Below are positions 14,188 to 58,785 of a stretch of DNA of 64,000 bases, piece by piece. The translations under genes and the position numbers were made by a program. This DNA is from a bacterium (lineage in GTDB: Bacteria; Patescibacteriota; Microgenomatia; UBA1400; UBA12108), in assembly GCA_021788365.1 (NCBI GenBank), contig JAJYKS010000002.1:32521-96520 (forward strand), written 5' to 3'. Under the pieces are notes generated by a model. It saw only the letters and a list, made by a program, of their open reading frames with translations, searched no databases and was not told the DNA's origin. The first letter of the stretch is position 1; every line of letters begins with the position of its first letter.

Positions 14188-14243
14188 GAATAAAGAATAA
14201 GCTCCTCTATTGCCATATTTCATGCTAAAATAACCAACTAGTG

Positions 14244-14324: not shown

Positions 14325-14328
14325 TCAA

Positions 14329-14637: not shown

Positions 14638-14650
14638 CGGTAATAAAATT

Positions 14651-14723
14651 GGGCCTAACTCTCAATGGGTTAGAGCATCCCGCTCACGCGGGAGTAACCT
14701 GGGTCCGAATCCCAGTGGGCCCA
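14651..14723 (+). tRNA. tRNA-Val (anticodon CAC), no encoded CCA
   Basis: Manual fold; anticodon loop CTCACGC; acceptor and T-arm identical to tRNA-Lys. Confidence 0.75.
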
Positions 14724-43077: not shown

Positions 43078-43080
43078 ATG

Positions 43081-43154
43081 TGCGCCCAGGTGGAATCGAA
43101 CCACCGACCGTCCCGTTAGAAGCGGGATGCTCTATCCAACTGAGCTATGGGCGC
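43081..43154 (-). tRNA. tRNA-Arg (anticodon TCT)
   Basis: Manual fold of the reverse complement: acceptor GCGCCCA/TGGGCGC, anticodon loop CTTCTAA, T-loop TTCGATT. Confidence 0.85.
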
Positions 43155-43222
43155 CAGTTATTTCATTATATCAGGCAGACACGGTATAATCAGGCTGCTG
43201 ACAGCCCTGAGCTTGTCGAAGG

Positions 43223-43305
43223 GCCGAGGTGGCGGAATGGTATACGCTCAAGTCTTAAAAACTTGTGGAGGTAACTCCATGCGGGTTCGATCCCCGCCCT
43301 CGGCA
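43223..43305 (+). tRNA. tRNA-Leu (anticodon TAA), type II long variable arm
   Basis: Acceptor GCCGAGG/CCTCGGC, anticodon loop CTTAAAA, variable arm TGGAGGTAACTCCAT. Confidence 0.8.
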
Positions 43306-43390
43306 CCTAGTACACCTCGATACTAGGTTGTAAAATGCAGTAACCTCTTAAAGTTCTCTTCGGGCTTGCCCGCCGAAACTTTAGTGAAGG

Positions 43391-43463
43391 CGGGGTGTGG
43401 CTCAGATGGTAGAGCGCCTCGTTTGGGACGAGGAGGTCCCCAGTTCGAGTCTGGGCACCCCGA
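43391..43463 (+). tRNA. tRNA-Pro (anticodon TGG)
   Basis: Acceptor CGGGGTG/CACCCCG, anticodon loop TTTGGGA. Confidence 0.85.
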
Positions 43464-43491
43464 CATAGGCCATGTTACAATAACTACCGTT

Positions 43492-44865: not shown

Positions 44866-46155
44866 ATGCCCGCCGACACGTCGCGACCTTTTGTTATTCT
44901 AACAACTGCTGTCGCAGGCCTTGGCCACCTTCGCGTGACTCGCGCGCTCCGTGACGCACTACCGGCAAAAGTCTCCAGTATAGAGATTCCCGCTAAAGAT
45001 ACGTGGCTCACGATGTTTCACAATGTGATGAGCAACAATAGTCTCTTACGGAAGATATTCGAGTATACGCAAGACACACCACAACTTGAGGATGCCTTTA
45101 CCTGGATCACCCGTCAGGGTTTGCATCTTACCTCAAGTCGGGTTCGACGTCTCATTGTTGATACCGTCCGAGAATCTAAAAAAAATCCGACGTCGGTTGT
45201 CATAGCGTGCAGCCACTTTATGCTGGCAGAGTCCGTAGGCGTAGAAAAACAAGCAATAGAGGCCGAGCTCGGTATCCCCGTACGTTTGGTTGTACAGATA
45301 ACCGACGACACCACCCAGCACATTTGGTACGTGACCGGCGCAGATCTACTCGTCGCCCCCAGCGTCCACGTTGCGTCGTCGCTCCACGCCTACGGTGTCG
45401 CCCATCACATGGCAGATACCCCCATCTCGGTTCTGCCATACCCCATAAATCCACTCTTTAGCAAACCGCTAAATCCCGGTCCGCACGAACGGCTTGCAGA
45501 ATACGAAGGGAAAGCGCCGCTCAAACTCGTGATCCCTGTTTCTGGTGCAGCGGCTGGCCTCAGCTACCTTACCGATCTCGCCATACATATAAGTAACAGC
45601 CACGACGCCATCCACACTACGATAGTCGGACAAGCAACCCCGCGTCTCAAAAGCACTCGCCGCCAGCTGCTACGCGCAAAGAACATAAAATGTATATGTG
45701 CAAAGTCAGAAGACGATGTTATTACAGCGTACGAGAACTACTACAAAGAGAATGTGGTAGGGGCAGAAGTGACAAAACCCAGCGAACAAGCCTTCAAGGT
45801 ACTTGCGAGACATGATCAGGTAGGGGGCAGTATCCTGTTCCTAACCCATCCCGTCGGACGCCAGGAATACGAAAACCTAGAATTCCTCTTTCGTAATCGT
45901 TTTATCCCAACTCCCTCAGAACGGCGAGAGCTTTTTGCGCTTGCGCGCTATCACCAAACTCCATCCACCGCGATTCGCCGCCAAGCTCGCTACTGGCGTG
46001 GTCTGCAGTTGCCGCCAATACCGAAAGAGGCTGCCTCATTCATCCACTGGTGTCTCGAGACGAAACTATTAGCCGACATGGGGTTGGTCACACGCAAGGC
46101 CCCCTCACTCCAACCCGACGGGGCAAAAGAGTTCTGGGACATAGCCCTCAACTAA
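44866..46155 (+). CDS. Putative glycosyltransferase (MGDG-synthase/UgtP-like N-domain plus GT28-like C-domain)
   Basis: 'VILTTAVAGLGHLRVTRAL' resembles the MGDG_synth N-terminus; weak. Confidence 0.35.
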   Translation: MPADTSRPFVILTTAVAGLGHLRVTRALRDALPAKVSSIEIPAKDTWLTMFHNVMSNNSLLRKIFEYTQDTPQLEDAFTWITRQGLHLTSSRVRRLIVDTVRESKKNPTSVVIACSHFMLAESVGVEKQAIEAELGIPVRLVVQITDDTTQHIWYVTGADLLVAPSVHVASSLHAYGVAHHMADTPISVLPYPINPLFSKPLNPGPHERLAEYEGKAPLKLVIPVSGAAAGLSYLTDLAIHISNSHDAIHTTIVGQATPRLKSTRRQLLRAKNIKCICAKSEDDVITAYENYYKENVVGAEVTKPSEQAFKVLARHDQVGGSILFLTHPVGRQEYENLEFLFRNRFIPTPSERRELFALARYHQTPSTAIRRQARYWRGLQLPPIPKEAASFIHWCLETKLLADMGLVTRKAPSLQPDGAKEFWDIALN

Positions 46156-46164
46156 TTCTCGAAG

Positions 46165-46203
46165 CGTAGATTGTAATATCTAGGACCTCAGTCGTGGTGA
46201 GTG
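46165..46203 (+). repeat. Direct repeat of the tRNA-His leader plus its first 7 nt (second copy at 46315-46353)
   Basis: GGACCTCAGTCGTGGTGAGTG is identical in both copies, preceded by similar TAATATC. Confidence 0.6.
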
Positions 46204-46314
46204 GAGAAGCACATCGAGTTGGTCACAACTCGAGAAATGCCTCCAGATACGAAGTAATCTGGGAGGCGCAGCTGGTTAGACCTGCCGGCAGGCAGGGCGC
46301 GTCAATTCTCCAAG
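46204..46314 (+). other. Hairpin-rich insert between the duplicated tRNA-His leaders, including a D-arm-like fragment (GCGCAGCTGGTTAGACC); possible decayed tRNA-His 5' remnant or small structured RNA
   Basis: Three inverted repeats: CGAGTTG-GTCA-CAACTCG; GCCTCCAGAT...ATCTGGGAGGC; CCTGCCGGCAGG. Confidence 0.35.
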
Positions 46315-46345
46315 CTTAGGTTATAATATCCTGGACCTCAGTCGT

Positions 46346-46420
46346 GGTGAGTGTAGCTCAGCTGGTTAGAGCGCGTCCCTGTGGAGGATGAGGTCGCCGG
46401 TTCGATCCCGGTCACTCACC
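46346..46420 (+). tRNA. tRNA-His (anticodon GTG) with encoded G-1 and C73
   Basis: Acceptor GTGAGTG/CACTCAC, G-1, anticodon loop CTGTGGA. Confidence 0.85.
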
Positions 46421-48016
46421 CATTACAGGATTATTCGACAAATAATCCTTAAAATGCACCATGTTATCGGTCTTTTCGAGAGGTTCGAACCTCCTAGCGA
46501 TTGCGCGGACGTCACAAGCCACAGATTTGAGCATAAATAGGGGTTTTTTGAGCTGTATATCGAGGACTCCATCGGTTAGCACTAGGTTCGAACCAAGATA
46601 GCTCACGATCTCCCGCCGCGTGCGCTCGTCACCATGGGCGAACCGCTCGGCTGCCGTTGCGGCGAATGACAGGTCCTGATCTAGCTCTTGGAGTCGCTCG
46701 TCCACTCTAGTATCGATACTATCGAGGAGCCGTTTCCGCGTCTCCTTGTCGTGCTCTAGCTCGGCCAGGCGGCGCTGGTAGTAGTCTTCGGGCACCTTGT
46801 CGTCGAGATATTTCCCGACCAGCGTGTCCATCTGCTTGAGGACCTCATTATAGCCAGTTTGTGCCTGCTGGAGGCTCGTCTGCCGATCACCTACGGACTT
46901 CTCCTGATCCTTTTTGATCTCACCGATTGCCCAGTCGTGGAATCCTTCGGGTATCTGGACCGCATCGAGAAGCTCACCGAACTGACGCTCCAGTTCTGTC
47001 GAAAGGAGGTAATGTTGGCGGCACGGCCCTTTTTTCTTCGTGCAGCGGTAATAGGTATAGCTATGGGTATTGCCGTTTTCCTGATGTTTTGTCTTTTTCT
47101 CTGCAGTGATCGAGCACCCGCACTCGCCGCACGACATGAGACCAGTATAAGGGAAGTAATGGGTCTTGGGACGAGGCTTATTCTTGAGTCCCAGTACGTA
47201 CTGGATCTCCTCAAACTCTTCGGGTTCGATCGCTTTTTTCGCCTTCGAGTCGTAAAAGGTCCCCGAGCTTGCAGGATACTCAAATCTCCCCGCGTACATC
47301 GGGTTTACCAGGAGATCGTACCAGGTTGTAGAGGGGAGCGTATCAACACGCTTACCGTGGAGACCCAAGGACTCCATATACACGCGTGCCTCGGCGGGTA
47401 TCATCTGGTGGCTGGCGACTAGCTTGAGCCCCTTGGAGACGAGGTCAAACACGTCGTTCGGTAGTATCTCGTCTTCTCCGAGCCGCTTGTACTGGGCATG
47501 ACGGTAGCCGAGCGGCAGACTCGCACCAGGGTACCAACCCCGTTCCGCCTTCTTGAGAAGCCCACGGTGAGTATCGGCACTGAGGTCTCGGCTAAACTGG
47601 TTCGTGAGACCGAACTCGACATACATCATCATGACGTTGTCTTCTGGGTACCAGTTACGGTCGACCGTGCGGATATGTTTGATCTCCCCACGCTGAAGCA
47701 TCCCCATGATCCGCCCTGCGTCGTCGGGGTTACGGGAGAGGCGGGAGAGCTTCCAGACGACAATCCCGTCCGCCTCGCCATTCTCAATCCGCTCAACCAT
47801 CCTGTTGAAAACTGGGCGGCCCACCTTGAACCCAGAGCACGACTCGCTCATAGTATCGACTACTTTGAGCTGATTATCGTGCGCCACATCCCCCATGACC
47901 TCGATCTGGGACTCGATCGAGGCTACCTGGCGGTCCTCGTTCGTCGAGCTTTTACGTGCGTAGACAAAGTAGCGGAGAGGTAGCTTTGGCTTGGTACTAG
48001 AGGTAGGAGCGTACAT
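46412..48016 (-). CDS. Large serine recombinase (resolvase domain + recombinase domain + zinc ribbon)
   Basis: 'YVYARKSSTNEDRQVASIESQ' (catalytic Ser) and 'GIVVWKLSRLSRN'; 534 aa; C-terminal Cys pairs. Confidence 0.85.
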   Translation of the reverse strand: MYAPTSSTKPKLPLRYFVYARKSSTNEDRQVASIESQIEVMGDVAHDNQLKVVDTMSESCSGFKVGRPVFNRMVERIENGEADGIVVWKLSRLSRNPDDAGRIMGMLQRGEIKHIRTVDRNWYPEDNVMMMYVEFGLTNQFSRDLSADTHRGLLKKAERGWYPGASLPLGYRHAQYKRLGEDEILPNDVFDLVSKGLKLVASHQMIPAEARVYMESLGLHGKRVDTLPSTTWYDLLVNPMYAGRFEYPASSGTFYDSKAKKAIEPEEFEEIQYVLGLKNKPRPKTHYFPYTGLMSCGECGCSITAEKKTKHQENGNTHSYTYYRCTKKKGPCRQHYLLSTELERQFGELLDAVQIPEGFHDWAIGEIKKDQEKSVGDRQTSLQQAQTGYNEVLKQMDTLVGKYLDDKVPEDYYQRRLAELEHDKETRKRLLDSIDTRVDERLQELDQDLSFAATAAERFAHGDERTRREIVSYLGSNLVLTDGVLDIQLKKPLFMLKSVACDVRAIARRFEPLEKTDNMVHFKDYLSNNPVMGE

Positions 48017-48032
48017 ATACGACCAGCTTACA

Positions 48033-49175
48033 CTATTTGCTCGTAGTTTGTAGTCGTACCATCTCTGCTGCTATCTGGCGAGCCAGATCATTCGTGCCTC
48101 CAGATGTAGCATTACCGGAAAAGTCTATAGATCGGACGATCTCGTTCACTCTCCCAGGGTCGATCGCGCCGTATGCTTGGTAGGTCGTCGCAATATGCTC
48201 GTGGCCTAGGTTTTGTGAGAGAGCCTTCATCTGCTCGGGGGTAGTAATGTGTTTCTCCGTCTCGGCCGTCACGAAATGGCGGAATGTATGGGGGTAGAAA
48301 TAGGGGAGTCTCATTTGCTTACACCGATCGCGGAAAATCGTACGCATCGAACCAGCATCGGCCCAAAATGCCTTACTCACCCCTTTGGCCTCGTACGCAT
48401 AGTTATCTGGTCCTATCTGGCCGATCTCGGTACTCGGGAAAAGTGGGTCATCCAGCCCGTAGTGTTTCTCTCGGGTGAGGTACTCGTACCACTCGGTGAA
48501 GTAACCCGTGAGCGTGCTATCGAGGGGTAGGAGTGTGGTGTAGATGTCCTTGTTAAACTTCGTCTTTACCCCTAGTGACGGAAGTTGTTTTACGAGTCGT
48601 GCCGCTGGATCATAACACCGTATCGAGAGTGACACGACCGCCCTATCCCGCATCCCCGTGAGCGACGTGAAGGCAATGAGAGCACGGTCCCGCCGATCTG
48701 TCTCCGAGAATGTGGGGAAGCTACAAAGTTGCCTGATCTGCTCCAGGGTAGGATAGCTCGGGAGCCTGGCAGAGAGCGCCTCTCGTTGCTCGCCGCGGGA
48801 TAACTTGAGGTAACTGGCGTACTCTGGACGGACCCGCGACTTGTATCCTGGCTGGCTCGATAGCCACGCAAAGAAGTTGCGGACGTGGCGGAGTGTGTAG
48901 TACCTACTCTTGAGGCCCAGAGGTCGTCCAGAACGTTCATTTGCATGGGTCCCCAGGTACCGCTTAAACTGCTCTGCCCGCTTGTCCGTAAACCGTACGA
49001 AGTCCTCGTAATCGCTAAACTCCTCATACTTGCCGATGGCCTTCTCTACCAATCGGATAGAAGCATCACTCATCTGCTCAGGTCCCTTTAGCCAGGACCA
49101 GTAACGCCGTTTCACCAGCTCGTTTTTCTGCCGAATCTCCCCACTCGTAGACATATTATTCCTTCCCACTCCCAA
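48033..49175 (-). CDS. Tyrosine recombinase/phage-type integrase
   Basis: C-terminal 'HTFRHFVTA...LGHEHIATTYQAY' (R-H-R-Y catalytic box). Confidence 0.8.
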   Translation of the reverse strand: MGVGRNNMSTSGEIRQKNELVKRRYWSWLKGPEQMSDASIRLVEKAIGKYEEFSDYEDFVRFTDKRAEQFKRYLGTHANERSGRPLGLKSRYYTLRHVRNFFAWLSSQPGYKSRVRPEYASYLKLSRGEQREALSARLPSYPTLEQIRQLCSFPTFSETDRRDRALIAFTSLTGMRDRAVVSLSIRCYDPAARLVKQLPSLGVKTKFNKDIYTTLLPLDSTLTGYFTEWYEYLTREKHYGLDDPLFPSTEIGQIGPDNYAYEAKGVSKAFWADAGSMRTIFRDRCKQMRLPYFYPHTFRHFVTAETEKHITTPEQMKALSQNLGHEHIATTYQAYGAIDPGRVNEIVRSIDFSGNATSGGTNDLARQIAAEMVRLQTTSK

Positions 49176-49620
49176 GTGAGTGATACAAAGAGGGCTGGTG
49201 GTCTACATTAGTACCTTCTCCCTCCGCTAATATATGTACTGGTTTGGTGAAATACTTACGTACATCATGACCGCACACCGCGCACTTTCCCTGATACTGT
49301 ATCTCCTCCATTCCCGTCCCGATCCGTTTATGGCAATCTACTACTTTAACGTCGAGACCCTTGACCGCCGTGTGGCACGAGAAGCAAAAAAACTCATCGG
49401 TGCCGAGTGGCACCCGTCGCGCTGCCTGTCGGCTGCGGCAATAGCGCCGCACCTCGTCGCCTAGATAGAGCGAGAAGTGACTGTCGGGGTCGATTGGCCG
49501 CAACCCCCCAGCTCGCCACGTGCGAATAGTCTGCGGGTGGACGCCAAGGCATTCGGCCAGCTCGGTAGTGCTATAGCTCCGTATCCCGATCAGCCTGCGG
49601 GTGCTAATGCGCTTCTTCAT
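49156..49620 (-). CDS. Excisionase/MerR-like HTH DNA-binding protein with C-terminal Cys4 zinc ribbon
   Basis: 'STTELAECLGVHPQTIRTWRAGG' HTH; CFSCH...CAVCGH. Confidence 0.5.
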   Translation of the reverse strand: MKKRISTRRLIGIRSYSTTELAECLGVHPQTIRTWRAGGLRPIDPDSHFSLYLGDEVRRYCRSRQAARRVPLGTDEFFCFSCHTAVKGLDVKVVDCHKRIGTGMEEIQYQGKCAVCGHDVRKYFTKPVHILAEGEGTNVDHQPSLYHSLGSGKE

Positions 49621-49818
49621 ACGTCCTCATGGCTGGTTTACGACTTGGCAGATATACGGCACGGTACAGGTTCACCAAATTGGTCCCAAGCTTTTCCGCA
49701 TCCTCATCCGACAGCTCCACCCCATACTCTTGGAGATATAACTTCTGAAAGGCAATAAGTGAATCTCTTGCTAACATACCTCCAAAATATATGGAGGCAC
49801 TTGATCAACCGAGATCAA

Positions 49819-51048
49819 CTATTGATCAACAACCGCGACGGAGCTATCCAAACTCTCCCGACCGCCTAGATAATCATGGTTAAAGCTAGCACTGTGCATG
49901 TTGTAGGTAAGAAATCTGACCACACCCAAGTCTCCGGCAATACGACTGACCAGAGCTCGTGCGGCGTCGTAGGGTACTCTCCCTGGATTTTTTACTTTCC
50001 CGACATCGACTACGTCCACCATCGAGCCTTTAATATCCTCAAATACAACATTTCCCTCGGGGTCGTCGTCAAGCGCCGCTAACAATATGCCCGCATTGTC
50101 TAGGTCGCGTTTAAACCGATAATCCTTGCCGTTGATCCTCAGGTAAACAAAGTTCTCATCTTTTTTCAAAGACCAGTGAACCCCGATAATTAGGTCGATA
50201 CCACCGGTAGGAGTAACCGGCGTTATACTCGAATGCGTATCTGGTTCTAGCTCTAGGTATTCGAGCGTAAATTGGTGTACCTTAGCTATGTAGTAACGAT
50301 AATCCACAGACTTAAACTCATGCGCCTGCTCTGACGGACCAAATTGCTCTCCCTTAATGATCTTCCTCATCTCTGCCTGCATCGACGACCAGCCCATCAG
50401 CTCAAAAAACTTATTTTTCTTGGCGAAATCGTCGTGGATCTTCCACTTGACGTCGTCGATCGCCCAAAACGCGGTTACGATCTTATCCCAGCTAAACCAT
50501 AGCCTGGTGATCTCGATAATCTTTAGACCAGTCATAATCTGGTCATACTTGGTATAGCTTGGAGAAAACGTCCAGGACGTGATCCGCCGCTCATTACTTA
50601 CTTCTCCATACCTTTGAACAAACTTGAGCTCCGCTTCATTGCCGTCCTCCACCATGGTCATGAGTGCGTAGGATAATTTGTCGTAAAGATCCTCGACATA
50701 GCCCCGAGAGGAGGTCATCCTTCCCTCTACGACATCGCGGAACTCGGCGAGATTTTTAGTCACAACCTTGTCCGTTATCCCAGAATACTTCACATGCGAG
50801 GCCACCTGTTTATAGATTTTCTGTATCTCGTCCACAGCTTTTTGCCACAGTTCATTGACTTCCTTGTACTCGGCGAGCTTTTGCTCCTGGATTGCCTTAA
50901 ACATGCCACCCAAATTTTCCTCTTGGTCAAAGACCCGGACATAATCGTATAGCCAGAGGAAAAAATGCTGCTCGCTATCCGCCGCCATTGCCAAGTCGTA
51001 GATGCGCACAAGCCGCTTGCGTAGTACCTCAACATTTGCCGTTGGCAT
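49819..51048 (-). CDS. Hypothetical protein (409 aa), island cargo
   Basis: Long ORF in a co-directional cluster; no recognisable domain. Confidence 0.4.
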   Translation of the reverse strand: MPTANVEVLRKRLVRIYDLAMAADSEQHFFLWLYDYVRVFDQEENLGGMFKAIQEQKLAEYKEVNELWQKAVDEIQKIYKQVASHVKYSGITDKVVTKNLAEFRDVVEGRMTSSRGYVEDLYDKLSYALMTMVEDGNEAELKFVQRYGEVSNERRITSWTFSPSYTKYDQIMTGLKIIEITRLWFSWDKIVTAFWAIDDVKWKIHDDFAKKNKFFELMGWSSMQAEMRKIIKGEQFGPSEQAHEFKSVDYRYYIAKVHQFTLEYLELEPDTHSSITPVTPTGGIDLIIGVHWSLKKDENFVYLRINGKDYRFKRDLDNAGILLAALDDDPEGNVVFEDIKGSMVDVVDVGKVKNPGRVPYDAARALVSRIAGDLGVVRFLTYNMHSASFNHDYLGGRESLDSSVAVVDQ

Positions 51049-51070
51049 ATACCCTATTTTACGCCGCGGC

Positions 51071-51424
51071 CTACATCGCCAAAGGGACTAGCTCTGTGGC
51101 TCCCGGGACGTCGGGGCTGGCGAAAATGTGATATGTGGTCGCATGGTTCGGATCGGTTCCAGGTTCCAAGACGAGAGCCTCGGCAGGGAAGCCATATTCA
51201 TTGAGGATTGCCAAAATATCGGTATCCGTAGCCTCCGGCGAAACGGAAACTTCTGTCATGGCTGTATCGACAATGTATCCCTCGCTTGTGGGGTGAAATA
51301 CCGGCTGCACATTGCGATGTGCCTGAAGAAGGTCAGGTTTCACGGGTCCAGGGAGAGCCGGAAATCCCTCTACCCACGGATCGGAGACATAGAGGTGTGA
51401 GGATAATTTGCAAGAATAGCTCAT
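51071..51424 (-). CDS. Hypothetical protein (117 aa)
   Basis: ORF; 4-nt overlap with the upstream gene. Confidence 0.3.
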   Translation of the reverse strand: MSYSCKLSSHLYVSDPWVEGFPALPGPVKPDLLQAHRNVQPVFHPTSEGYIVDTAMTEVSVSPEATDTDILAILNEYGFPAEALVLEPGTDPNHATTYHIFASPDVPGATELVPLAM

Positions 51425-53100
51425 ACTGACCCAGGACCTAACTGGGGTGTCTCAAGTCTTTTCTTGGCTGTTTCTTCGTCGGCGACATCCTTGGCCAGTT
51501 GTCTCTGTAGAAGCTCCGCTTGTTGCTGTGCTTGATGATCTTGAAAAATTGCTTGACCGGCCTGAATTGTTGCCCGACCGGCTTTTTTTGCAGCAGTGTA
51601 AAGATTATTGAGGGCATCCAGGGTTCTTTGCTTTGATGCAACGGCAGTGGTAAGGGCGATCATGTTTTCGGCATGTTTACCCATGCGCTCTTTTTCATCC
51701 AGGACTATTTTGGGCCGGATAAACATCTTGGCCAGTCCTGTTTCCTGCTTCTGCACAGTTTGCTGGCTTTCAGCAACGATTTTATTAGTTCTGCGAATAG
51801 TGTCAGCTAGATTGCCGAGCAGTGACATCGTGTCACGCGGATTGTTAACCATGATTTCGCCAATAATTTGGTTGCGTTCGAGTGAGTAAAAAATGATCTT
51901 ACCGCCAACGTTAAAGCCGGTAAGCCATTTGTAGAGAGAATTTTGCAGGAGCGCTCCGCCTTTTTTTCTGATCGTGTCAACTGCCGAAGGTGTACCGATC
52001 GACATAAGATAACCACCAGGAACAGCAGATTTGTTGGTGGTGAGGAGGGATAGTGGTAAAGGAAGGTCGTCCTGTTTTTTAGTGATGTCACGGATTACCA
52101 GGCTTGTATTGGTTAATCCCCAAACTCGATTACGATGAAGTTCCTCCTCATGGTCGGTGAGGACGATTTTGTTGGTGACCAGGTCGGTTACAAACATGGT
52201 CTCCGGTTCGGTTTGGAGGGCCAATTCATCGAGGGCAGTACCCATCGTCTTAAATTGTTCGAAAAGAGCATTAGCCTGAGATTGCTCGGCGATGTCACCG
52301 GCGGCGGCCAATACAGCCAAGTCCAGTTCTTTCATAAGTGTATCTTGAGGTTTACCCATTTTTTCCAACTGGAGTAGGTGTGCGGCCAAGGCCTTCTCCT
52401 CTGGAGTAAGCGGGTAGGCATGGTCGAGATGACCTTGCTTTACCGCCTTAGCCAGTTCTTCAGCTTTGGTGACGATGTCCTTCTCTAAATCAGTTAGCCG
52501 AGCTTGCCCTCGATTACTAAAAACAAAAGCTGGATTAATGTCCAAATATCTCTGCTTAATTTTACTGATGGCGGCGGCGATGGCTGGTGTGGAAGGAACT
52601 TCAAGATCGATATGAGTACCAAAATTCTTATTGATCAAATTTTCGCCTAGATCAAGCGCAGTCTTTTCTATCGTGCTGGCCGGGGGGATGAATAGCAGTC
52701 CATGCTGGAGGATTCCGGCTTTAGCTAGGCGCCAAGCCGCGTCGCCCACGGTCAAGGTTTCTTCTTCTCCGGCCTTGGTAGCGGCAGGTTTGGTGCTGGC
52801 CCAGGGGTGCCCGTCGCTAAGGTGTTTCCAGGCGTCATCGCTAGCCCTAACAATAGCGAGGGGATTGATACTTTGAGGATATTCAGCTGGAGGGGGCGTC
52901 GCTGCTGGTTTAGCAGGTGTTTGCTGACCAATAGCCCTCCATGCGTCTTCAGCAGAGATGCCATTGGCCCACGCTGCTGTGTTTATCGTAGGTGTTGGCG
53001 AAGCCGCACCTTGTTTTCCCAGTGCGCCCCACAGCGCCTCACCGGATTGTTGTGAGAGCCATAGTGCAGCGGGACTGGTGGTTTCTTGTACGGAGGCCAT
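51421..53100 (-). CDS. Hypothetical protein (559 aa) with N-terminal repeated (D/E)AW(K/R)xL motifs and a C-terminal coiled-coil
   Basis: 'EALWGAL', 'EDAWRAIG', 'DDAWKHL' and 'DAAWRLAK' repeats; Gln/Ala-rich C-terminus. Confidence 0.45.
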   Translation of the reverse strand: MASVQETTSPAALWLSQQSGEALWGALGKQGAASPTPTINTAAWANGISAEDAWRAIGQQTPAKPAATPPPAEYPQSINPLAIVRASDDAWKHLSDGHPWASTKPAATKAGEEETLTVGDAAWRLAKAGILQHGLLFIPPASTIEKTALDLGENLINKNFGTHIDLEVPSTPAIAAAISKIKQRYLDINPAFVFSNRGQARLTDLEKDIVTKAEELAKAVKQGHLDHAYPLTPEEKALAAHLLQLEKMGKPQDTLMKELDLAVLAAAGDIAEQSQANALFEQFKTMGTALDELALQTEPETMFVTDLVTNKIVLTDHEEELHRNRVWGLTNTSLVIRDITKKQDDLPLPLSLLTTNKSAVPGGYLMSIGTPSAVDTIRKKGGALLQNSLYKWLTGFNVGGKIIFYSLERNQIIGEIMVNNPRDTMSLLGNLADTIRRTNKIVAESQQTVQKQETGLAKMFIRPKIVLDEKERMGKHAENMIALTTAVASKQRTLDALNNLYTAAKKAGRATIQAGQAIFQDHQAQQQAELLQRQLAKDVADEETAKKRLETPQLGPGSV

Positions 53101-53105
53101 AATAT

Positions 53106-53522
53106 TTATTGAGTATTTTCCTTTACTTCGGTAACATCAGCGTCGATAACCTCGTCGTCTCCATCACCCTCATAAACCACTACATCCCCTCGCTTGTTTA
53201 CAGTTTTTTTTGCACGAGCCTTCTCGATAAATTTTTGGAAAATTCCCGGTTTAGCTGGCTGTTTGGGCTGGTCGGCGAGTTTCTTCCACTCCTCTTCACC
53301 GGTTCGAAGGGCAGCAGCGACGGCCTGCACGACGCCTACCCCTGCAGCATGAGCGAGGTTTTCTGGCAACTTCAACTCTTTGGTTACTTGTTGTGTTACC
53401 CCATCCAAAAACCCCGCTTGTTTAGGTGGAGGGGTGAGAGCCTGCCACGCAGATTCGCTGGCAGAGTCACTGTTACCTTGCTGCCCAGATAATGATTTCC
53501 AGGCTTCATCAGATGTAGTCAT
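53106..53522 (-). CDS. Hypothetical protein (138 aa) with the same AW-type repeats
   Basis: 'DEAWKSL', 'ESAWQAL' and 'EEEWKKL'. Confidence 0.4.
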   Translation of the reverse strand: MTTSDEAWKSLSGQQGNSDSASESAWQALTPPPKQAGFLDGVTQQVTKELKLPENLAHAAGVGVVQAVAAALRTGEEEWKKLADQPKQPAKPGIFQKFIEKARAKKTVNKRGDVVVYEGDGDDEVIDADVTEVKENTQ

Positions 53523-53593
53523 TTGTGCTCCTTTTTATGTATGTATTCTATCCTATGGGTCCACTCCTTGGGAAGAGTTCGGAGTTGTTCACG

Positions 53594-53639
53594 CGCCGCA
53601 CTTGGTGACCATTCTCATGGTCAAGAGCCAAGTGCGGCG
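53594..53639. promoter_or_regulatory. Nested palindrome (CGCCGCACTTGG [TGACCAT TCTC ATGGTCA] AGAG CCAAGTGCGGCG) between two island genes
   Basis: 10-bp outer stem and 7-bp inner stem seen in sequence; no U-tract. Confidence 0.35.
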
Positions 53640-53736
53640 GATTGTCGTGAACGATGTATTTGATTGTAATTTTACCGTGGTCGCCGGATAGGCGAGGGCG
53701 CGCGAGGCGGCCACGGTGCTGGCTAAATGGCCAGGT

Positions 53737-54393
53737 TTACGGGCAGGCACCAACCGTGACGGCAGCAAGATGGATCCAGGATCCAACAGGAAAGGATCCC
53801 GACGCCTCAGCAAGCTGGCCGCGCTGGCACACATTGTTGACACAGGTACTGTCAACGATAGATCCGATTTTAATCGTAGTGCCAGCGGGAATGTTTCCGA
53901 GCCCGTTTGGTCCTCCAGCTGTGGAGTTGGGTTCAGGGCGAACTGTGGCTCCATCAGACATGGTAACGCAGTATGGCTGCCCGCCAGTCGTGGACAGTAA
54001 TGACTGCTGCGAACCGGGGGTGGGAGAGACAAGACTCTGATGAACTGCTGTAGGCGGAACCTGGGAATTCGCGGCTGAGGGAATAGGGCTGGGTGTGCCA
54101 AGGATCACTCCTTCAGTGTTGACGACACCGGTGCTTATGCCCCAGATGAAAAACTTCCCTAGCCAAGGACCAACGAAGATGATGAAGAGCACCACCAGGA
54201 TCAAAGTAATGATCCCAATGACGAACAGGAATGCCTGATGCTTCTTCTTCGCGTATATCACTGGTCCCTCGGCGGATTCTTTCCCGGCCGTAGCCCAACG
54301 CCAGATGATCAAACCGGCAACAATGGCAAAAACCAATGCGCCGAACCAGTGCTGGCCAAGCCATGCGAGTAGTTGAACAATTGTGGTTGGCAT
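53737..54393 (-). CDS. Hypothetical membrane protein (2 TM plus Pro/Ser/Thr-rich and Cys-containing extracytoplasmic region)
   Basis: Two hydrophobic helices in the N-terminal half; C-terminal PST-rich segment with 4 Cys. Confidence 0.45.
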   Translation of the reverse strand: MPTTIVQLLAWLGQHWFGALVFAIVAGLIIWRWATAGKESAEGPVIYAKKKHQAFLFVIGIITLILVVLFIIFVGPWLGKFFIWGISTGVVNTEGVILGTPSPIPSAANSQVPPTAVHQSLVSPTPGSQQSLLSTTGGQPYCVTMSDGATVRPEPNSTAGGPNGLGNIPAGTTIKIGSIVDSTCVNNVCQRGQLAEASGSFPVGSWIHLAAVTVGACP

Positions 54394-54516
54394 GATATTT
54401 CTCCTTTTTGATTTGGAACTGAATTTTTTTGGATACGACTTGAATCTTGCGTTCTATTACTTTGTTACTTTGGACTATCAACCACCTCCTTTCGGGATGG
54501 GGTTTGTACACATTCG

Positions 54517-56262
54517 CTATGGTGCGGATGTGGGGGTGGGTGAATTTGCCGTTTGCTGGATTAGCTGTTGCCAGAGTGTCCAGACAAACTTTGCCTGACC
54601 TTCGTGCTGATTCCAGCACGATCCCTTGAGGGGATGGTAGGCAAAACGGTCAACGAACACGGCCTCGGAGGTTGCGCTAGGCAAACCCTGGTCGCTGATC
54701 TTCCTGCATGCAGCATCAGCTGCCGCGGGGATATTTGTGCGATCGGGCTGGTCTGGACCTACAGGCCAATAGTCATTCCACGTACCCGGCATGAACTGCC
54801 AGACACCTGCGGCTCCCACGGGGGAAACGGCGGTGTTGTTGTAAACGGAGCTTTCAGAGAAAGCCACCGCGACAACGAGGCGTGGATCACAGGTACCGTT
54901 CTTTTGGTACGCTGTGACAGCGGCATCCCAAACGTCTTGGGGTGCATAAAAACGCACCTCACTGCCATTCCAATAAGTAATCTGGAATTCCGGCAGAGCG
55001 CTGGGGACGCGGGCAACTGGAGCAGAGGCAACTGCGGGGGGTGGAGAATAGAGGCTGGGGATAAAGTACATCCCGGCCAAGACACCCGCGACCAAGAGAG
55101 TGACAACCACAAACGTCTGTCCATGGCGTTTTTTCTTGGTTTCGGCAGTTGGCTCGTAAGCTCCGCGGGCTTGGCGCAGGCGACCCAGGAGGGTCAAGCC
55201 AAGCCAAAAGGCCAGCATACCGTACACGAGGGCGTTAGGGACGCTCGACTCGCCGTTTAACCAGTCTCGGAAGAGTCTGGTGCGGTAAGCCAAAACATCC
55301 GGCCATTGCCACTGGGCGTAAAAGTATGCGCCAATAGTCATGACCACGCCGACGATGACGGCTACTTCAATGGCTCCTCGCCAGAGACTTTTCTTTCTGG
55401 CGACTTCGCCTTGGGTTCGAGGCTTGCCAATCCGCAAAATTACTTTTGGACCGGCAAATATGAGCCACAAGACGGCGAGGACCACCAACCCCCAAACGGC
55501 TGCTGTTTGAAAAGACTGATAGATCGCAGCAGCGTGCACCTCCTTTGGTGCGGGGTTTGTTTTTACGGTGGGGACAACTATGGTTCCAGGGATATTTGTT
55601 GGAACAATCCCAGGAACTTGCGGAAGCGGGTTTGTGGTGGGTCCACTTGTGACCGTGAGGGTGAGACTATCACCATCCACAGTCCAGTGGAGCACTACTG
55701 GTCCGTAGTCGTTGACGACGCGGACGTCCGCTCCGTTTTTTGTGCTGGGGTCAGCCGAGTTGCGGGATGTTGCTACCGCAATTGAGTATCGGCTATCGAC
55801 CCCGGGGATGGGTGTCGGGTGTGGTGAGTAACTATCGACAGTGAGACCGGCAGATGCCAGTGTCTCCGAGACCATCGATATTATGTCACACGCGCCGCCA
55901 CCTTCAGTAATCCCCCCTACTTCGGAGTAGCCCATACCGTACTCGACGGTATAGGGTCCGAAGACGCCGTTCAGCCAGGTGGTCCCTGACGGGATGGTCA
56001 CCTGACCCTCAAAGCTATCGGGGACGCTAAGATACGCGTCCTTAAACTTTGAACCTGGCGAAACACCCCAGAGTGTCATCAACATATTGAGACGGTAGTT
56101 AGTGTAGCTACCATAGTTAAGTCTCATGTTGAAGACCTTTGAGGTTGGGTTGAAGCTTATCGGCCGTATGGCCTGCACTGTCCCGGTGGGGGACAGAAGA
56201 GCGATTAGCGCAAGGAGAAGAACTCCCAGCGCCAAGGTTTGCTTGGTTTTCATGGAATTCAA
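54517..56262 (-). CDS. Secreted/membrane fusion protein: VanW-like N-terminal domain, TM helices, C-terminal lytic transglycosylase (SLT-like) domain
   Basis: Signal peptide; 'GGGACDIISMVSETLASAGL' (VanW-like GGG-C motif); 3-4 TM helices; C-terminal 'FSESSVYNN...GAAGVWQFMPGTWNDY' (SLT motif). Confidence 0.55.
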   Translation of the reverse strand: MNSMKTKQTLALGVLLLALIALLSPTGTVQAIRPISFNPTSKVFNMRLNYGSYTNYRLNMLMTLWGVSPGSKFKDAYLSVPDSFEGQVTIPSGTTWLNGVFGPYTVEYGMGYSEVGGITEGGGACDIISMVSETLASAGLTVDSYSPHPTPIPGVDSRYSIAVATSRNSADPSTKNGADVRVVNDYGPVVLHWTVDGDSLTLTVTSGPTTNPLPQVPGIVPTNIPGTIVVPTVKTNPAPKEVHAAAIYQSFQTAAVWGLVVLAVLWLIFAGPKVILRIGKPRTQGEVARKKSLWRGAIEVAVIVGVVMTIGAYFYAQWQWPDVLAYRTRLFRDWLNGESSVPNALVYGMLAFWLGLTLLGRLRQARGAYEPTAETKKKRHGQTFVVVTLLVAGVLAGMYFIPSLYSPPPAVASAPVARVPSALPEFQITYWNGSEVRFYAPQDVWDAAVTAYQKNGTCDPRLVVAVAFSESSVYNNTAVSPVGAAGVWQFMPGTWNDYWPVGPDQPDRTNIPAAADAACRKISDQGLPSATSEAVFVDRFAYHPLKGSCWNQHEGQAKFVWTLWQQLIQQTANSPTPTSAP

Positions 56263-56278
56263 CTCCTTTCTTTTAAAT

Positions 56279-56331
56279 TTGAAACCAGCAAGACAGAGGA
56301 CGAAAATTCATCCGCTATCAGCTGGTTTCAA
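56279..56331 (-). promoter_or_regulatory. 11-bp-stem hairpin (TTGAAACCAGC...GCTGGTTTCAA) in the 5' leader of the VanW-SLT gene, ~6 nt before its AAAGGAG RBS
   Basis: Seen in sequence. Confidence 0.3.
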
Positions 56332-56562
56332 TCGCGATAAAAGCTCTATATAGGCCGCAGTCAATTTTGTCGTATCCGTATAAAAGGAGAATATCTCTTT
56401 TATCAAATACAAACGTTCACTTTTTAAGGTGCGTGATCTCCACGACAACCAACTCGCTTCGAGTAGATGTCGCCAAAATCACGTATTCAGTGGGCAGTAA
56501 CCTAGCTAGGGCGCAACCAATCCCACGCGATGTGGTAGTAGATGCGTGTGTAGCTATTGCGT

Positions 56563-56668
56563 AAGATTATAGCCTATTAGTCAAGTTATAGGTCTGGAAA
56601 AAACTGACTGAACCCATGGTACTTAAAAAAGTGCACTAAGCACCATGGGTTCGACTTACTCAGTCAGT
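56563..56668. repeat. Repeat-family member R-a: TTATAGCC/TTATAGGT motif plus a 66-bp palindrome P1 (ACTGACTGA...GTGCAC...TCAGTCAGT)
   Basis: Shares the ACTGACTGA and TTATAGG cores with four other loci in 56.5-61.8 kb. Confidence 0.6.
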
Positions 56669-56698
56669 CGGCGAAACGAGCCACGTAACTATTTGGGA

Positions 56699-56929
56699 TT
56701 AATTCGCTCGCCGAATTAGGTGGAGATTGGTGGGACAGACCGAGGCTGTTTGACCAAATTGGTCGTCCACATCACGGTAGATGGTAACTTGCGTATTGCC
56801 ATCACGCAGTGATGAAACAACACCAATGGTCCCAGCCACGTGAAGTGGATGAGACTTACCAGAGAGCGTGATTTGCATGGCGACGACGTCGCCTAGTCGG
56901 GGAGCTTCCCCGTTTGGATAATTTTTCAT
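56699..56929 (-). CDS. Small hypothetical protein (76 aa)
   Basis: ORF only. Confidence 0.3.
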   Translation of the reverse strand: MKNYPNGEAPRLGDVVAMQITLSGKSHPLHVAGTIGVVSSLRDGNTQVTIYRDVDDQFGQTASVCPTNLHLIRRAN

Positions 56930-57043
56930 TTTTTATATCCTCTTGGTGAAATGTTGGATCAAATTTTGCGGCTTATTGAAGCCCGCGATAAACTACGAGC
57001 ACTCGTACGACGGGAAACTTACATTGTGTCTGGTGGAATCATT

Positions 57044-57311
57044 ATATTCTCCTTTTCAAAAATGGATTTCACGCTGGGGACTAATTTAATTCCCAAAGTG
57101 AAACCCATTTTGTTGGAACACTGACTGAGTGTTAAAGTGCAAGAAGCGATCGGGCAGACGCAAACGTCCACACATCGCCTATTACTCGACGGAGTTTACA
57201 CAACAAATGCGTATGAGTCAAGGTTATAGGCTAAAACCATAGGAAAAATGAGGACCGCTGGTCTGGTAGGTCGCGAAAATCTCTCGAACACGCTCCCGCA
57301 GGCTACCCAAA
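57044..57311. repeat. Repeat-family member R-b (~270 bp), about 80% similar over ~200 bp to R-d at 61625-61825; 3' ~90 bp also matches R-c
   Basis: Contains the hairpin AAAATGGATTTCAC...GTGAAACCCATTTT, the ACTGACTGAGTGTTAAAGTGCAA core, GAGTTTACACAACA, TTATAGGCTAAAACCATAGG and a GGTAGG...CTACCCAAAG element. Confidence 0.65.
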
Positions 57312-57347
57312 GATATAGTTTGATATATTAAAACAGAATGATTGGTT

Positions 57348-57461
57348 ATGGTAGCAGGTGAACTACAACGTGCTATAGAGGCCGCACAAAAGCTGGTAGA
57401 GAGCGGCGGAATGACCGCCGATGAGTTTGAGGAGCTCAAACGAAATCTCCTGGGGGATTAG
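57348..57461 (+). CDS. Possible 37-aa SHOCT-domain peptide
   Basis: 'MVAGELQRAIEAAQKLVESGGMTADEFEELKRNLLGD' fits the SHOCT consensus (GxIT.EEFE..K..LL); directly downstream of R-b. Confidence 0.3.
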   Translation: MVAGELQRAIEAAQKLVESGGMTADEFEELKRNLLGD

Positions 57462-57655
57462 ATTATACCTACCGAACTTCGCATCGAGGGTCAAGAGGCC
57501 AACGGCATCCCGTCCCACGCCAAACCCGCAGTTACGGAAGAAGAGACAACACCAGAGGAGCGCTGGGCGAAGAAAGGTAAAGAAACACCTGCCAGCGGGG
57601 CAGCCAATACCGCGATGAACCTAGAAATTATAGAGCGGTCACAAAAATAGAAAAA

Positions 57656-58039
57656 GTGATATGGATAATTCGTATGACATCACCTGACTATGTAAGGCTT
57701 GAACGGATGGCCACCTGGGCACGAGATACACTCCATCCTTATCTCCTAGAGCTCATCCCTCAGTATGCCTCCGCCACCTTGGCCATGAACATCCAGATGG
57801 CGGCGGGGGTAGTGTATGGGAGAGATGTGTACGGGGTTAATGCCGTGAGTGATCGTGAGCCGATAGCGGCAGATGATCTAGAGCAGTTTGCGGCCATGTG
57901 TGCAGAAGCAATCGCTCACTTCGACACCGATCACCTCTGGACTCCACGATATTCTGCCAAGAAATACAAAAGTAATGATCAGGTCCTGATCATCTCCCAC
58001 CACTTCCGCGCTAACCAGTACTCTCATGTCTGGAATTAA
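57656..58039 (+). CDS. Hypothetical protein (127 aa)
   Basis: ORF within the repeat-flanked cassette. Confidence 0.35.
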   Translation: MIWIIRMTSPDYVRLERMATWARDTLHPYLLELIPQYASATLAMNIQMAAGVVYGRDVYGVNAVSDREPIAADDLEQFAAMCAEAIAHFDTDHLWTPRYSAKKYKSNDQVLIISHHFRANQYSHVWN

Positions 58040-58074
58040 TCGCTCTAATCATTTATACTACGAACAGTAAAAAC

Positions 58075-58431
58075 ATGTTTGATCAAAAGAAGTACAACCA
58101 TTTAGGGTTCACCGAAAAAATAGCTTACCTTACAAACGCTGTAAGGGATGGCGAAATCGGAGAACCAGAAATTTCGAAAATTGTGAAGGATGATCGATCT
58201 GAGGAAGTTATTTTTAACGTCGTTTATCAAATATCTAATGGCCTGGATAGTGACCTTGAAAGTGGTAGCAGAGCCACGCAGGTAGCAGAACAACTAGCCA
58301 TGGCAAGAATGACAGAACTTAAATCCCATTTTCCTCACGGACCTATAGGCAGAGACGCCAAAGGGAAAATGGAATACGATACAACTGGAGACGCACTAAA
58401 ATCTCTCCAAGATAAAATGAATAGACGTTAG
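58075..58431 (+). CDS. Hypothetical protein (118 aa)
   Basis: ORF within the cassette. Confidence 0.35.
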   Translation: MFDQKKYNHLGFTEKIAYLTNAVRDGEIGEPEISKIVKDDRSEEVIFNVVYQISNGLDSDLESGSRATQVAEQLAMARMTELKSHFPHGPIGRDAKGKMEYDTTGDALKSLQDKMNRR

Positions 58432-58433
58432 CT

Positions 58434-58667
58434 ATGCCTAATCCAAGTGAAACACCACCCAAGGGAATCTCGGGAGAAGCACTTGCCGACTGGTGGCGTG
58501 AACACGGTGCCAACATGCAACACGTCGAGATACTTTCAGATGATGAGCGTATTTGCCCTCGATGTGGTGATGTTCAACCTTGTACTGGAACTGACGAATG
58601 TACGTCTTGTGGAGCATCGTTAAAAGGAGCGAAACGACGTCGGCGAAATCTCTTCCAGTCGCAGTAA
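58434..58667 (+). CDS. Small zinc-ribbon protein (77 aa), basic C-terminus
   Basis: CPRCG...CTSCG; 3-nt gap from the upstream ORF. Confidence 0.4.
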   Translation: MPNPSETPPKGISGEALADWWREHGANMQHVEILSDDERICPRCGDVQPCTGTDECTSCGASLKGAKRRRRNLFQSQ

Positions 58668-58684
58668 GTATTTAGTCTAGAACA

Positions 58685-58785
58685 AGCTATAGGCTGAAAC
58701 GATATGCAAATCGATGGCCTGTGATCTGGTAGGTAGCAAAGATCTCTCGAACGACCTCCCGCAAACTACCCAAAGCAATCAAATG
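58685..58785. repeat. Repeat-family member R-c (matches the 3' ~90 bp of R-b), directly upstream of the 58811 ORF
   Basis: Shares the conserved blocks TCTGGTAGGT, ATCTCTCGAAC, CTCCCGCA and CTACCCAAAG with R-b. Confidence 0.6.

What the first reader, a model, noticed from the sequence alone, without database searches (positions are those of the whole stretch)
46165..46420. tRNA-His with duplicated leader/5' end and a hairpin-rich tRNA-like insert, parallel to the tRNA-Lys locus
The 33-bp segment ...TAATATC..GGACCTCAGTCGTGGTGAGTG (leader plus the first 7 nt of tRNA-His) occurs twice, 150 bp apart. Between the copies lie three strong inverted repeats and a D-arm-like GCGCAGCTGGTTAGACC. As at tRNA-Lys, the partial copy sits on the 5' side with a hairpin insertion in the D-loop position, so this architecture is recurrent in this genome. 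Two recombinase genes sit immediately 3' of this tRNA, so the site is recombinationally active.
Basis: seen in the sequence. Interest (0 to 1): 0.55.

Follow-up and report, generated by a model that had tools for sequence, protein, structure and literature searches.

The report
Conserved tRNA-His-derived small RNA upstream of tRNA-His
Just upstream of the tRNA-His gene of an uncultivated Patescibacteria bacterium lies an old partial copy of that gene's promoter and 5' end, which has become a conserved hairpin-rich element, most likely a small RNA of unknown function; it is not an assembly error or a scar of the neighbouring mobile island.

Summary
A 53-nt direct repeat (87% identical, with a 21-nt exact core) lies 150 nt apart. 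A gapped alignment shows that the upstream unit (46154-46303) is a tandem copy of the tRNA-His promoter, leader and tRNA positions -1 to about 30, interrupted by hairpins. It is not an artefact: the same locus was assembled from at least eight separate samples.

It occurs in four lineages: A/A' (window type), B, C and D. Their upstream gene is 99%, 88%, 55% and 43% identical in protein to the window's. Between A and B, neutral (fourfold) sites are 57% identical, but the core 46183-46292 is 94% identical, while the flanks on both sides are 48-54%. Between A and D, neutral sites are saturated (35%), yet the element is 81% identical and hairpin H1 keeps pairing through two compensatory changes. 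Conservation starts at the transcription start predicted for a promoter of the local tRNA type.

The two recombinases belong to a separate 12.35-kb island at the tRNA's 3' end. That island is absent from relatives that still carry the 5' duplication. The tRNA-Lys parallel is only superficial: it involves a GIY-YIG cassette and is not conserved.

Best reading: a selectively maintained, tRNA-His-derived structured leader or small RNA. No Rfam family matches. Transcription and function are untested.

The parts
46154..46206 (+). Repeat copy 1. It holds promoter-like P1 (-10 TGTAAT at 46172-46177), a 12-nt leader, G-1 (46196) and a copy of the tRNA-His acceptor 5' strand, GTGAGTG (46197-46203).
   Evidence: The -10 motif matches the local tRNA promoter pattern TAGGTTnTAAnAT.
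46184..46292 (+). Conserved core of the upstream element, the putative small RNA or structured 5' leader. It is four hairpins in series, and conservation starts at the transcription start predicted for P1.
   Evidence: A vs B: 101/108 identical (94%) against 57% at fourfold sites, P about 1e-17. Flanks are 48% and 54% identical. A vs D: 47/58 (81%) against 35% neutral.
46201..46212 (+). Small hairpin GUG-N6-CAC. It uses the last 3 nt of the acceptor-strand copy, and the GCAC motif is present in all four lineages.
   Evidence: 3 invariant pairs in A, A', B and D; sequence of C.
46214..46233 (+). Hairpin H1 (UCGAGUU / GGUCAC / AACUCGA).
   Evidence: Lineage D has UCAGGC/GCCUGA at this place: two pairs change on both sides and 100% of cells stay paired. 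The only A/B difference is in the loop.
46234..46238 (+). Conserved linker GAAAU, the unpaired part of GAAAUG. The final G (46239) opens H2.
   Evidence: Identical in A, A' and D; B has GAAGUG.
46239..46267 (+). Hairpin H2 (GCCUCCAGAU / ACGAAGUA / AUCUGGGAGGC, with one bulged G). The loop ACGAAGUA is invariant in A, B and D.
   Evidence: The 3' strand in D was not seen because the contig ends in the loop.
46268..46293 (+). Hairpin H3'. The D-arm-like GCAGCUGGU pairs with GCCGGC..GC, with two G-U pairs, which favours an RNA of the + strand. It overlaps the D-arm-like segment 46266-46280.
   Evidence: RNAalifold consensus of A, A' and B; D4 repeat.
46281..46296 (+). Hairpin CCTGCC-GGCA-GGCAGG, specific to the window lineage.
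46297..46303 (+). GCGCGTC, the end of the duplicated unit (tRNA positions about 24-30). It overlaps the -35-like GCGTCA (46299-46304) of promoter P2.
   Evidence: (D7). xGTCA sits 17 nt upstream of TATAAT in A, B and C.
46304..46356 (+). Repeat copy 2: promoter P2 (-10 TATAAT at 46322-46327), the leader, G-1 (46346) and the start of tRNA-His.
   Evidence: TTAGGTTATAAT is conserved in A, B and C.
46347..46421 (+). tRNA-His (GUG), complete and canonical.
   Evidence: ARAGORN; Rfam tRNA 62.7 bits.
46423..58772 (.). A separate 12.35-kb integrated island (serine recombinase 46412-48016, tyrosine integrase 48033-49175, an HTH protein, an SLT-domain protein and unknowns). It is bounded by ACCCA at 46418-46422 and 58768-58772 and is not part of the 5' element.
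   Evidence: Empty site in L012, L015, L016, L005 and L006; Pfam.

Best explanation
An ancient tandem duplication copied the tRNA-His promoter, leader and the first roughly 30 nt of the tRNA. The upstream copy did not decay. In lineages A, B and D it is a selectively maintained element of about 110 nt made of four hairpins in series: a GUG/CAC mini-hairpin, H1, H2 and H3'. It still begins with the tRNA-His leader, G-1 and the acceptor 5' strand.

I infer the following steps. The element is transcribed from its own tRNA-type promoter P1, starting at about 46184. Because no terminator follows, transcription runs on through P2 into tRNA-His. RNase P cleavage at the tRNA 5' end would then release the element as a structured 5' leader or small RNA of about 110-160 nt.

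Shown here: the duplication, its age, purifying selection on the core, and hairpin-preserving substitutions. Inferred: transcription, processing and function. My best guess for function is a cis-linked leader or small RNA tied to tRNA-His expression or maturation, since its linkage to tRNA-His survived a rearrangement in lineage C. In the window lineage, a later gene-conversion-like event re-copied P2 and the leader onto copy 1.
For: 1. The locus is identical in two assemblies (ENA ERZ27233565 and Logan SRR13170411). The same architecture appears in A' (five ENA samples), in B (four ENA samples plus the NCBI MAG GCA_021842825.1), in C and in D.
2. Selection. The upstream ORF has fourfold-site identity of 57% for A-B, 29% for A-C and 35% for A-D. 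The core is 94% identical for A-B (P about 1e-17), with flanks at 48% and 54%. For A-D it is 81% identical over the 58 nt available (P about 1e-12).
3. Structure. All A/B substitutions between 46204 and 46268 fall in loops or linkers. In D, the H1 stem is rebuilt with two double-sided changes and all cells paired; slid controls give 21-63% paired. H3' has two G-U pairs on the + strand.
4. Promoter. P1 reads TAGATTGTAATAT in A, CAGGATATAATAT in B and TAGGTTAAAATAT in D. Compare P2, TAGGTTATAAT, and the window's tRNA-Pro promoter, TAGGTTGTAAAAT. Conservation begins 7 nt after the -10 hexamer.
5. The hairpin insert cannot be maintained by conversion from the tRNA, which lacks it.
6. Evidence for conversion in A: copy 1 and copy 2 are similar over 53 nt in A, about 38 nt in B, and 10 + 10 nt in C.
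Against: There are no expression data, and the generic sigma-70 scan found no promoter or terminator here. Only four lineages are available, so covariation rests on two base pairs in one helix (34 of 500 shuffles reach it). H2 and H3' never vary. Lineage C lacks H1/H2 and has a degenerate P1, so the hairpin module is dispensable there. A' and B co-occur in the same samples, and the locus shows mosaic identity; for example, the last roughly 50 nt of the ORF are about 96% identical. Recombination could therefore inflate A-B similarity, although it cannot explain D. Within A vs A', the tRNA-like parts changed at about the neutral rate (4 changes in 150 nt). The insert has no Rfam match and no second copy in any DNA held.
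Confidence: 0.6

Rival explanations
1. It is a non-functional relic. A tandem partial duplication of the tRNA-His 5' region is slowly decaying and picking up hairpin-forming insertions. It stays recognisable only through repeated gene conversion from the adjacent real tRNA gene and through recombination between co-occurring strains.
For: Copy 1 tracks its own tRNA: GTGAGTG in A and GTGGGTG in C. The 53-nt block in A looks like a recent conversion. C keeps only a compact copy without the hairpins and with a poor -10. A' shows near-neutral change in the tRNA-like parts. Identity across the locus is mosaic. The analogous tRNA-Lys copy is not conserved.
Against: Conversion from the tRNA cannot preserve H1, H2, the GAAAUG linker or the ACGAAGUA loop, because the tRNA lacks them. 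Yet these are 94% identical in A-B and about 81% in A-D, where neutral sites are saturated. The H1 stem changes in D are compensatory. The flanks on both sides of the core have diverged to neutral levels.
Confidence: 0.2
2. The element works at the DNA level. It is an upstream regulatory region of the tRNA-His promoter, made of protein-binding sites or cruciform-forming palindromes, rather than an RNA.
For: It lies at about -40 to -160 relative to P2. GCGTCA at its end coincides with a -35-like hexamer 17 nt upstream of TATAAT in A, B and C. In C the remnant sits directly upstream of P2 and next to a divergent PfkB gene. Compensatory changes would also preserve a DNA hairpin.
Against: The spacing between the conserved core and P2 is not conserved (indels, and a 16-nt hairpin only in A). 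Conservation begins at a predicted transcription start downstream of a -10 box, not at a fixed distance from P2. G-U pairs in H3' would be A-C mismatches on the other strand.
Confidence: 0.12
3. It is an attachment-site scar: direct repeats left by the serine or tyrosine recombinase island, or by an earlier integrative element that targeted tRNA-His.
For: tRNA genes are classic integration sites, and two recombinase genes abut the tRNA. The site is demonstrably polymorphic for a 12.35-kb island.
Against: The island joins at the 3' end with only a 5-nt repeat. The 5' duplication is present unchanged in island-free genomes of A', B and C. The two copies abut directly, with nothing between them that could be an element. 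The duplicated part is the promoter and 5' third, not the 3' part that integrases normally duplicate (established knowledge of tRNA-targeting integrases).
Confidence: 0.05
4. It is an assembly artefact at a repeat.
For: Short-read metagenome assemblies can collapse or duplicate repeats.
Against: The sequence is identical in two assemblies made with different assemblers. Homologous but diverged versions occur in more than ten further contigs from other samples and in one NCBI MAG. The copies differ at 7 of 53 positions, so they are not a graph loop.
Confidence: 0.01

Closest known systems
Functional spacers of bacterial tRNA transcripts, such as the E. coli 3'ETS-leuZ small-RNA sponge (Lalaouna et al. 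2015, as cited in PMC9514646)
   Same: It is a non-tRNA segment of a tRNA transcription unit. It would be released by tRNA-processing nucleases and could act as an RNA in its own right. Like 3'ETS-leuZ, it is physically linked to a tRNA gene.
   Different: This element lies 5' of the tRNA, appears to have its own promoter, is derived from a duplicate of the tRNA's own 5' end, and is a four-hairpin structure. No target, no Hfq-type partner and no expression data are known. It shares no sequence or Rfam family with 3'ETS-leuZ.
Tandem promoters of stable-RNA operons (rrn P1/P2 type; established knowledge)
   Same: There are two -10 boxes of the same type about 150 nt apart, both reading into one stable-RNA gene. 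They arose by duplication.
   Different: What is most conserved here is the transcribed segment between the promoters, not the upstream promoter itself. The sequence around P1 has diverged to neutral levels between A and B.
Partial tRNA copies at the ends of integrated elements (attL/attR of tRNA-targeting integrases; established knowledge)
   Same: Both involve a direct repeat of part of a tRNA gene next to an intact tRNA, at a locus that also carries recombinases.
   Different: The repeat covers the 5' part plus the promoter, the copies abut, no element lies between them, and the repeat is present in island-free relatives. The real island junction is at the 3' end with a 5-nt core.
tRNA pseudogenes and tRNA-like RNAs (Rfam RF00005 clan; the tRNA-like domains of tmRNA and YrlA)
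   Same: It starts with a G-1 plus acceptor 5' strand identical to tRNA-His, and it contains a D-loop-like AGCUGGUUA.
   Different: It has no anticodon arm, no T arm and no 3' acceptor strand. Neither ARAGORN nor Rfam reports a match.
Homing-endonuclease cassettes that duplicate part of their target gene (the window's own tRNA-Lys/GIY-YIG locus; free-standing GIY-YIG SegB in the T4 tRNA cluster, PMC2330249)
   Same: A 5' partial tRNA copy lies upstream of an intact tRNA.
   Different: No ORF lies between the tRNA-His copies. The His element is conserved at deep divergence, whereas the Lys extras are missing from a relative.

Membership tests
tRNA / tRNA pseudogene (Rfam RF00005) | A cloverleaf with acceptor, D, anticodon and T arms that scores against the tRNA covariance model. 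| tested here: not met
   Only 46347-46420 scores (62.7 bits). Nothing in 46154-46303 scores at E <= 10, and ARAGORN is silent there. The alignment covers tRNA positions -1 to about 30 only.
Any curated RNA family (Rfam 15) | A match to a covariance model. | tested here: not met
   There is no hit to the element in the window at E <= 10, or in relatives L005, L010 and L020 at E <= 1.
Integrase att-site duplication | The direct repeats flank a mobile element, and repeats and element are present or absent together. | tested here: not met
   The copies abut. Island-free genomes keep the duplication. The island has its own junctions at the tRNA 3' end.
Conserved structured non-coding RNA (generic criteria) | Conservation above the neutral rate, with boundaries sharper than the surrounding intergenic DNA. 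| tested here: met
   94% against 57% neutral for A-B, with flanks at 48% and 54%. 81% against 35% for A-D.
Conserved structured non-coding RNA (generic criteria) | Compensatory base-pair changes that support the helices. | tested here: inconclusive
   H1 has 2 of 7 pairs with double-sided changes and all cells paired. H2 and H3' are invariant. There are only 4 distinct sequences, and D is truncated.
Conserved structured non-coding RNA (generic criteria) | A transcript with defined ends. | not testable with these tools
   No expression data are available. The promoter is inferred from the -10 motif shared with other tRNA promoters, and the generic scan was negative.
Repeated mobile hairpin element (REP / MITE-like) | Multiple dispersed copies in the genome. 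| tested here: not met
   Each hairpin occurs once in the 64 kb at <= 3 mismatches. nhmmer finds only the orthologous copies in all held DNA. Only 64 kb of the genome was searched.
Tandem stable-RNA promoters | Two promoter-like sites of the same type, in the same orientation, upstream of one stable-RNA gene. | tested here: met
   There are -10 motifs at 46172-46177 and 46322-46327, and both are conserved as motifs in relatives. Promoter activity was not tested.

The most novel reading that the evidence does not exclude
The element is a dedicated mimic of the 5' end of pre-tRNA-His, with the same leader, G-1 and acceptor strand fused to a conserved hairpin platform. It would control tRNA-His biogenesis in one of two ways. 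It could compete with the true 5' strand for the tRNA's 3' acceptor strand within the P1 transcript. Alternatively, it could titrate a factor that reads the unusual G-1 end, such as RNase P, HisRS or a tRNA-His-directed nuclease. That would be a tRNA-specific RNA regulator born from its own target gene, in a lineage with a minimal genome.
Probability: 0.12. Interest if true: 0.75.

Novelty: new variant of a known kind. Interest (0 to 1): 0.45.

Why it matters
If the element is transcribed, it is a clean natural example of how a new small RNA gene arises. A tandem duplication of a tRNA promoter and 5' end supplied the transcription signals, and a hairpin module was then fixed under selection. 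Patescibacteria have tiny genomes and very few described regulatory RNAs, so a deeply conserved RNA tied to a single tRNA would be a useful entry point into stable-RNA regulation in this group. There are also practical consequences. The element breaks naive 'partial tRNA = integration scar' annotation. It also shows that the neighbouring 12-kb island is a separate, recent insertion.

Tried and rejected
- Rfam searches of the locus at E <= 10 and of relatives at E <= 1 found only tRNAs.
- Searches for further copies of each hairpin in the window and of the whole insert in all held DNA by nhmmer found none.
- Exact and degenerate scans of viral contigs for H2 and for linker-H2 gave 0 hits.
They returned only a 33%-identical Woesebacteria locus whose tRNA-His has no upstream copy.
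- More distant ORF homologues (P0020, P0030) are not next to tRNA-His.
- I tried to recover the missing half of lineage D through the 240-aa downstream protein. That protein belongs to a mobile restriction-modification-like neighbourhood, and the contig fetched had no tRNA.
- The generic promoter/terminator scan was negative.
- A conserved closing stem between the 5' mimic and the 3' end of the element was considered and rejected. B folds into a four-way junction, but the pairing is not conserved in A.
- Small ORFs on either strand were considered and rejected: no start codon follows the SD-like GGGAGG.
- A hammerhead-like core was considered and rejected: GAAA is present after H1, but there is no CUGAUGA.
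- Assembly artefact and att scar are treated under the rival explanations.

Full report
**What is there**

tRNA-His (GUG) lies at 46347-46420/21. The 21-mer GGACCTCAGTCGTGGTGAGTG occurs exactly twice in the window, at 46183 and 46333; no match was expected by chance. Ungapped, the repeat is 53 nt at 87% identity (46154-46206 and 46304-46356).

The upstream unit, 46154-46303, is a copy of the leader plus tRNA positions -1 to about 30. It reads GTGAGTG ... GCGCAGCTGGTTAGA ... GCGCGTC, with about 60 nt inserted after the acceptor strand and 16 nt inserted after GGTTAGA. It ends exactly where the second leader copy starts, so this is a tandem partial duplication of 74 nt plus 76 nt of inserts. The upstream copy has no anticodon arm, T arm or 3' acceptor strand. 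It matches neither the tRNA model nor any other Rfam model at E <= 10.

**Where the window comes from**

The upstream 429-aa ORF (44866-46155) has weak MGDG-synthase-like relatives in Patescibacteria and Woesebacteria. The window's atpB is about 71% identical to Woesebacteria atpB. The window is part of a 130-kb metagenome contig (ENA ERZ27233565). The same 5.6 kb was assembled independently by Logan from SRR13170411, and the two are 100% identical including the duplication.

**Relatives**

I fetched contigs that encode homologues of the 429-aa ORF and found four lineages.

- A' has an ORF 99% identical in protein and was found in five samples.
- B is 88% identical and was found in four samples plus NCBI MAG GCA_021842825.1.
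- C is 55% identical.
- D is 43% identical, on a 1.5-kb contig.

All of them carry a partial tRNA-His 5' copy upstream of tRNA-His or, in D, directly after the ORF.

- A' differs from the window at 4 positions of the upstream unit.
- B has the same leader/acceptor copy, H1 with one loop change, an identical H2, and the D-like GCAGCTGGTT. Its sequence around P1 and in the spacer before P2 is unrelated.
- D has TTTAGGTTAAAATATCC, then GTG-GTGGGTG-TAGC-GAGCAC, then an H1 with a different stem, then GAAATG, then the H2 5' strand and the ACGAAGTA loop. The contig ends there.
- In C, tRNA-His is on the other strand relative to the ORF, but it still has a compact copy directly upstream of its promoter: GTGGTGGGTG-CAGGGGCAC-GCAGCTGGTTAAGATACGTC. 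This copy is significant (0 of 2000 shuffles). It lacks H1 and H2 and has a degenerate -10.
- A 33%-identical Woesebacteria locus has no such copy.

**Selection**

Fourfold-degenerate sites of the ORF are 96% identical for A-A', 57% for A-B, 29% for A-C and 35% for A-D.

For A-B (the same pattern appears in sliding windows for A'-B):

| Segment | Identity |
|---|---|
| Core 46183-46292 | 101/108 (94%, P about 1e-17) |
| 27 nt before the core | 48% |
| 26 nt after the core | 54% |
| P2 plus leader | 96% |
| tRNA-His | 99% |

For A-D, 47 of the 58 alignable positions are identical (81%, P about 1e-12). The hairpin module is absent from the tRNA gene, so gene conversion from the tRNA cannot maintain it. 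D is too divergent for recent exchange to explain the similarity.

**Structure**

RNAalifold on A, A' and B gives four hairpins in series: GUG/CAC, H1, H2 and H3'. In H3' the D-like GCAGCUGGU pairs with GCCGGC..GC through two G-U pairs. All A-B substitutions in 46204-46268 are in loops or linkers. In D, two H1 pairs change on both sides (G-C to A-U and A-U to G-C) and every cell stays paired, against 21-63% paired in slid controls. This evidence is suggestive but thin: there are four sequences and one informative helix.

**Promoters**

The generic sigma-70 scan is negative. However, P2 (TAGGTTATAAT), the window's tRNA-Pro promoter (TAGGTTGTAAAAT) and P1 in D, B and A share a -10 motif. Conservation of the core starts about 7 nt after the P1 hexamer. 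No terminator follows the core. I therefore infer read-through into tRNA-His and release of the element by RNase P.

**Concerted evolution**

In the window lineage the two copies are similar over 53 nt, starting at the ORF stop codon. In B they are similar over about 38 nt, and in C over only 10 + 10 nt. Copy 1 carries A4 in the window, as its tRNA does, but the ancestral G4 in B. A conversion-like event in lineage A therefore refreshed P1 and the leader. That event is what made the repeat conspicuous.

**The recombinases**

A' and B continue after ...CACTCACCCA with AAGCAATCAAATGG. In the window that sequence resumes at 58773. A 12.35-kb island (46423-58772) bounded by ACCCA is therefore inserted at the tRNA 3' end. 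The island carries the serine recombinase, the tyrosine integrase, an HTH protein and an SLT-domain protein. The site is recombinationally active, but the island is younger than the 5' duplication and independent of it.

**tRNA-Lys**

- 14243-14325 is a partial tRNA-Lys (positions -4 to 47) with a 30-nt D-loop insert and a replaced anticodon arm.
- A GIY-YIG ORF follows at 14329-14586 (Pfam E = 4e-14). Its 3' end reads into tRNA-Lys.
- A third, non-canonical tRNA-like copy sits at 14651-14723 (39 bits).
- A relative whose atpB is 77% identical has tRNA-Lys, 18 nt and then tRNA-Glu, with no GIY-YIG gene.

The Lys extras therefore look like products of a mobile cassette, not like a conserved RNA.

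**Verdict**

The element is most likely a conserved structured leader or small RNA derived from tRNA-His, of unknown function (confidence 0.6). The main rival is a conversion-maintained relic (0.2). It belongs to no described family. Its kind, a functional spacer or small RNA of a tRNA operon, is known, so I rate it a new variant of a known kind.

Noticed in passing
window 14243-14723: The tRNA-Lys locus holds a 5' partial tRNA-Lys copy (14243-14325), a GIY-YIG nuclease ORF (14329-14586) whose stop codon lies inside the D loop of the intact tRNA-Lys (14564-14638), and a non-canonical tRNA-like copy (14651-14723; Rfam 39 bits, 6-nt anticodon loop, missed by ARAGORN). A relative (L024) has none of the extras apart from an 18/19-nt remnant of the ORF. 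This looks like a homing-endonuclease-type cassette that duplicated part of its tRNA target.
   Followed up: partly
window 46418-58772: A 12.35-kb integrated island sits at the 3' end of tRNA-His, bounded by ACCCA. It carries a large serine recombinase, a tyrosine integrase, an HTH protein, an SLT-domain protein and mostly unknown ORFs. The empty site is seen in L012, L015, L016, L005 and L006.
   Followed up: yes
window 58811-59532: The 240-aa gene that follows tRNA-His in island-free relatives (intact at L012 5596-6318) is split into two overlapping ORFs in the window by a 1-nt indel. This is either a pseudogene or a sequencing error. Its homologues are scattered across phyla, and it sits next to an Eco57I/N6-methylase gene, so it is probably part of a mobile restriction-modification module.
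   Followed up: partly
window 43077-43465: The tRNA-Arg/Leu/Pro cluster is inverted in the window relative to A' (L012) and B (L005), so there is a second rearrangement within 3 kb of the tRNA-His locus.
   Followed up: no
window 46100-46155 (3' end of the 429-aa ORF): The last roughly 50 nt of the ORF are about 96% identical between A' and B, including synonymous sites, although the ORF as a whole is 81% identical. This could be a recombination tract or an overlapping signal upstream of the element.
   Followed up: no
window 43336-43390: tRNA-Pro has a leader of about 50 nt containing a long hairpin (AAAGTT...AACTTT) downstream of a TAGGTTGTAAAAT promoter motif. Structured tRNA leaders may be common in this genome.
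   Followed up: no
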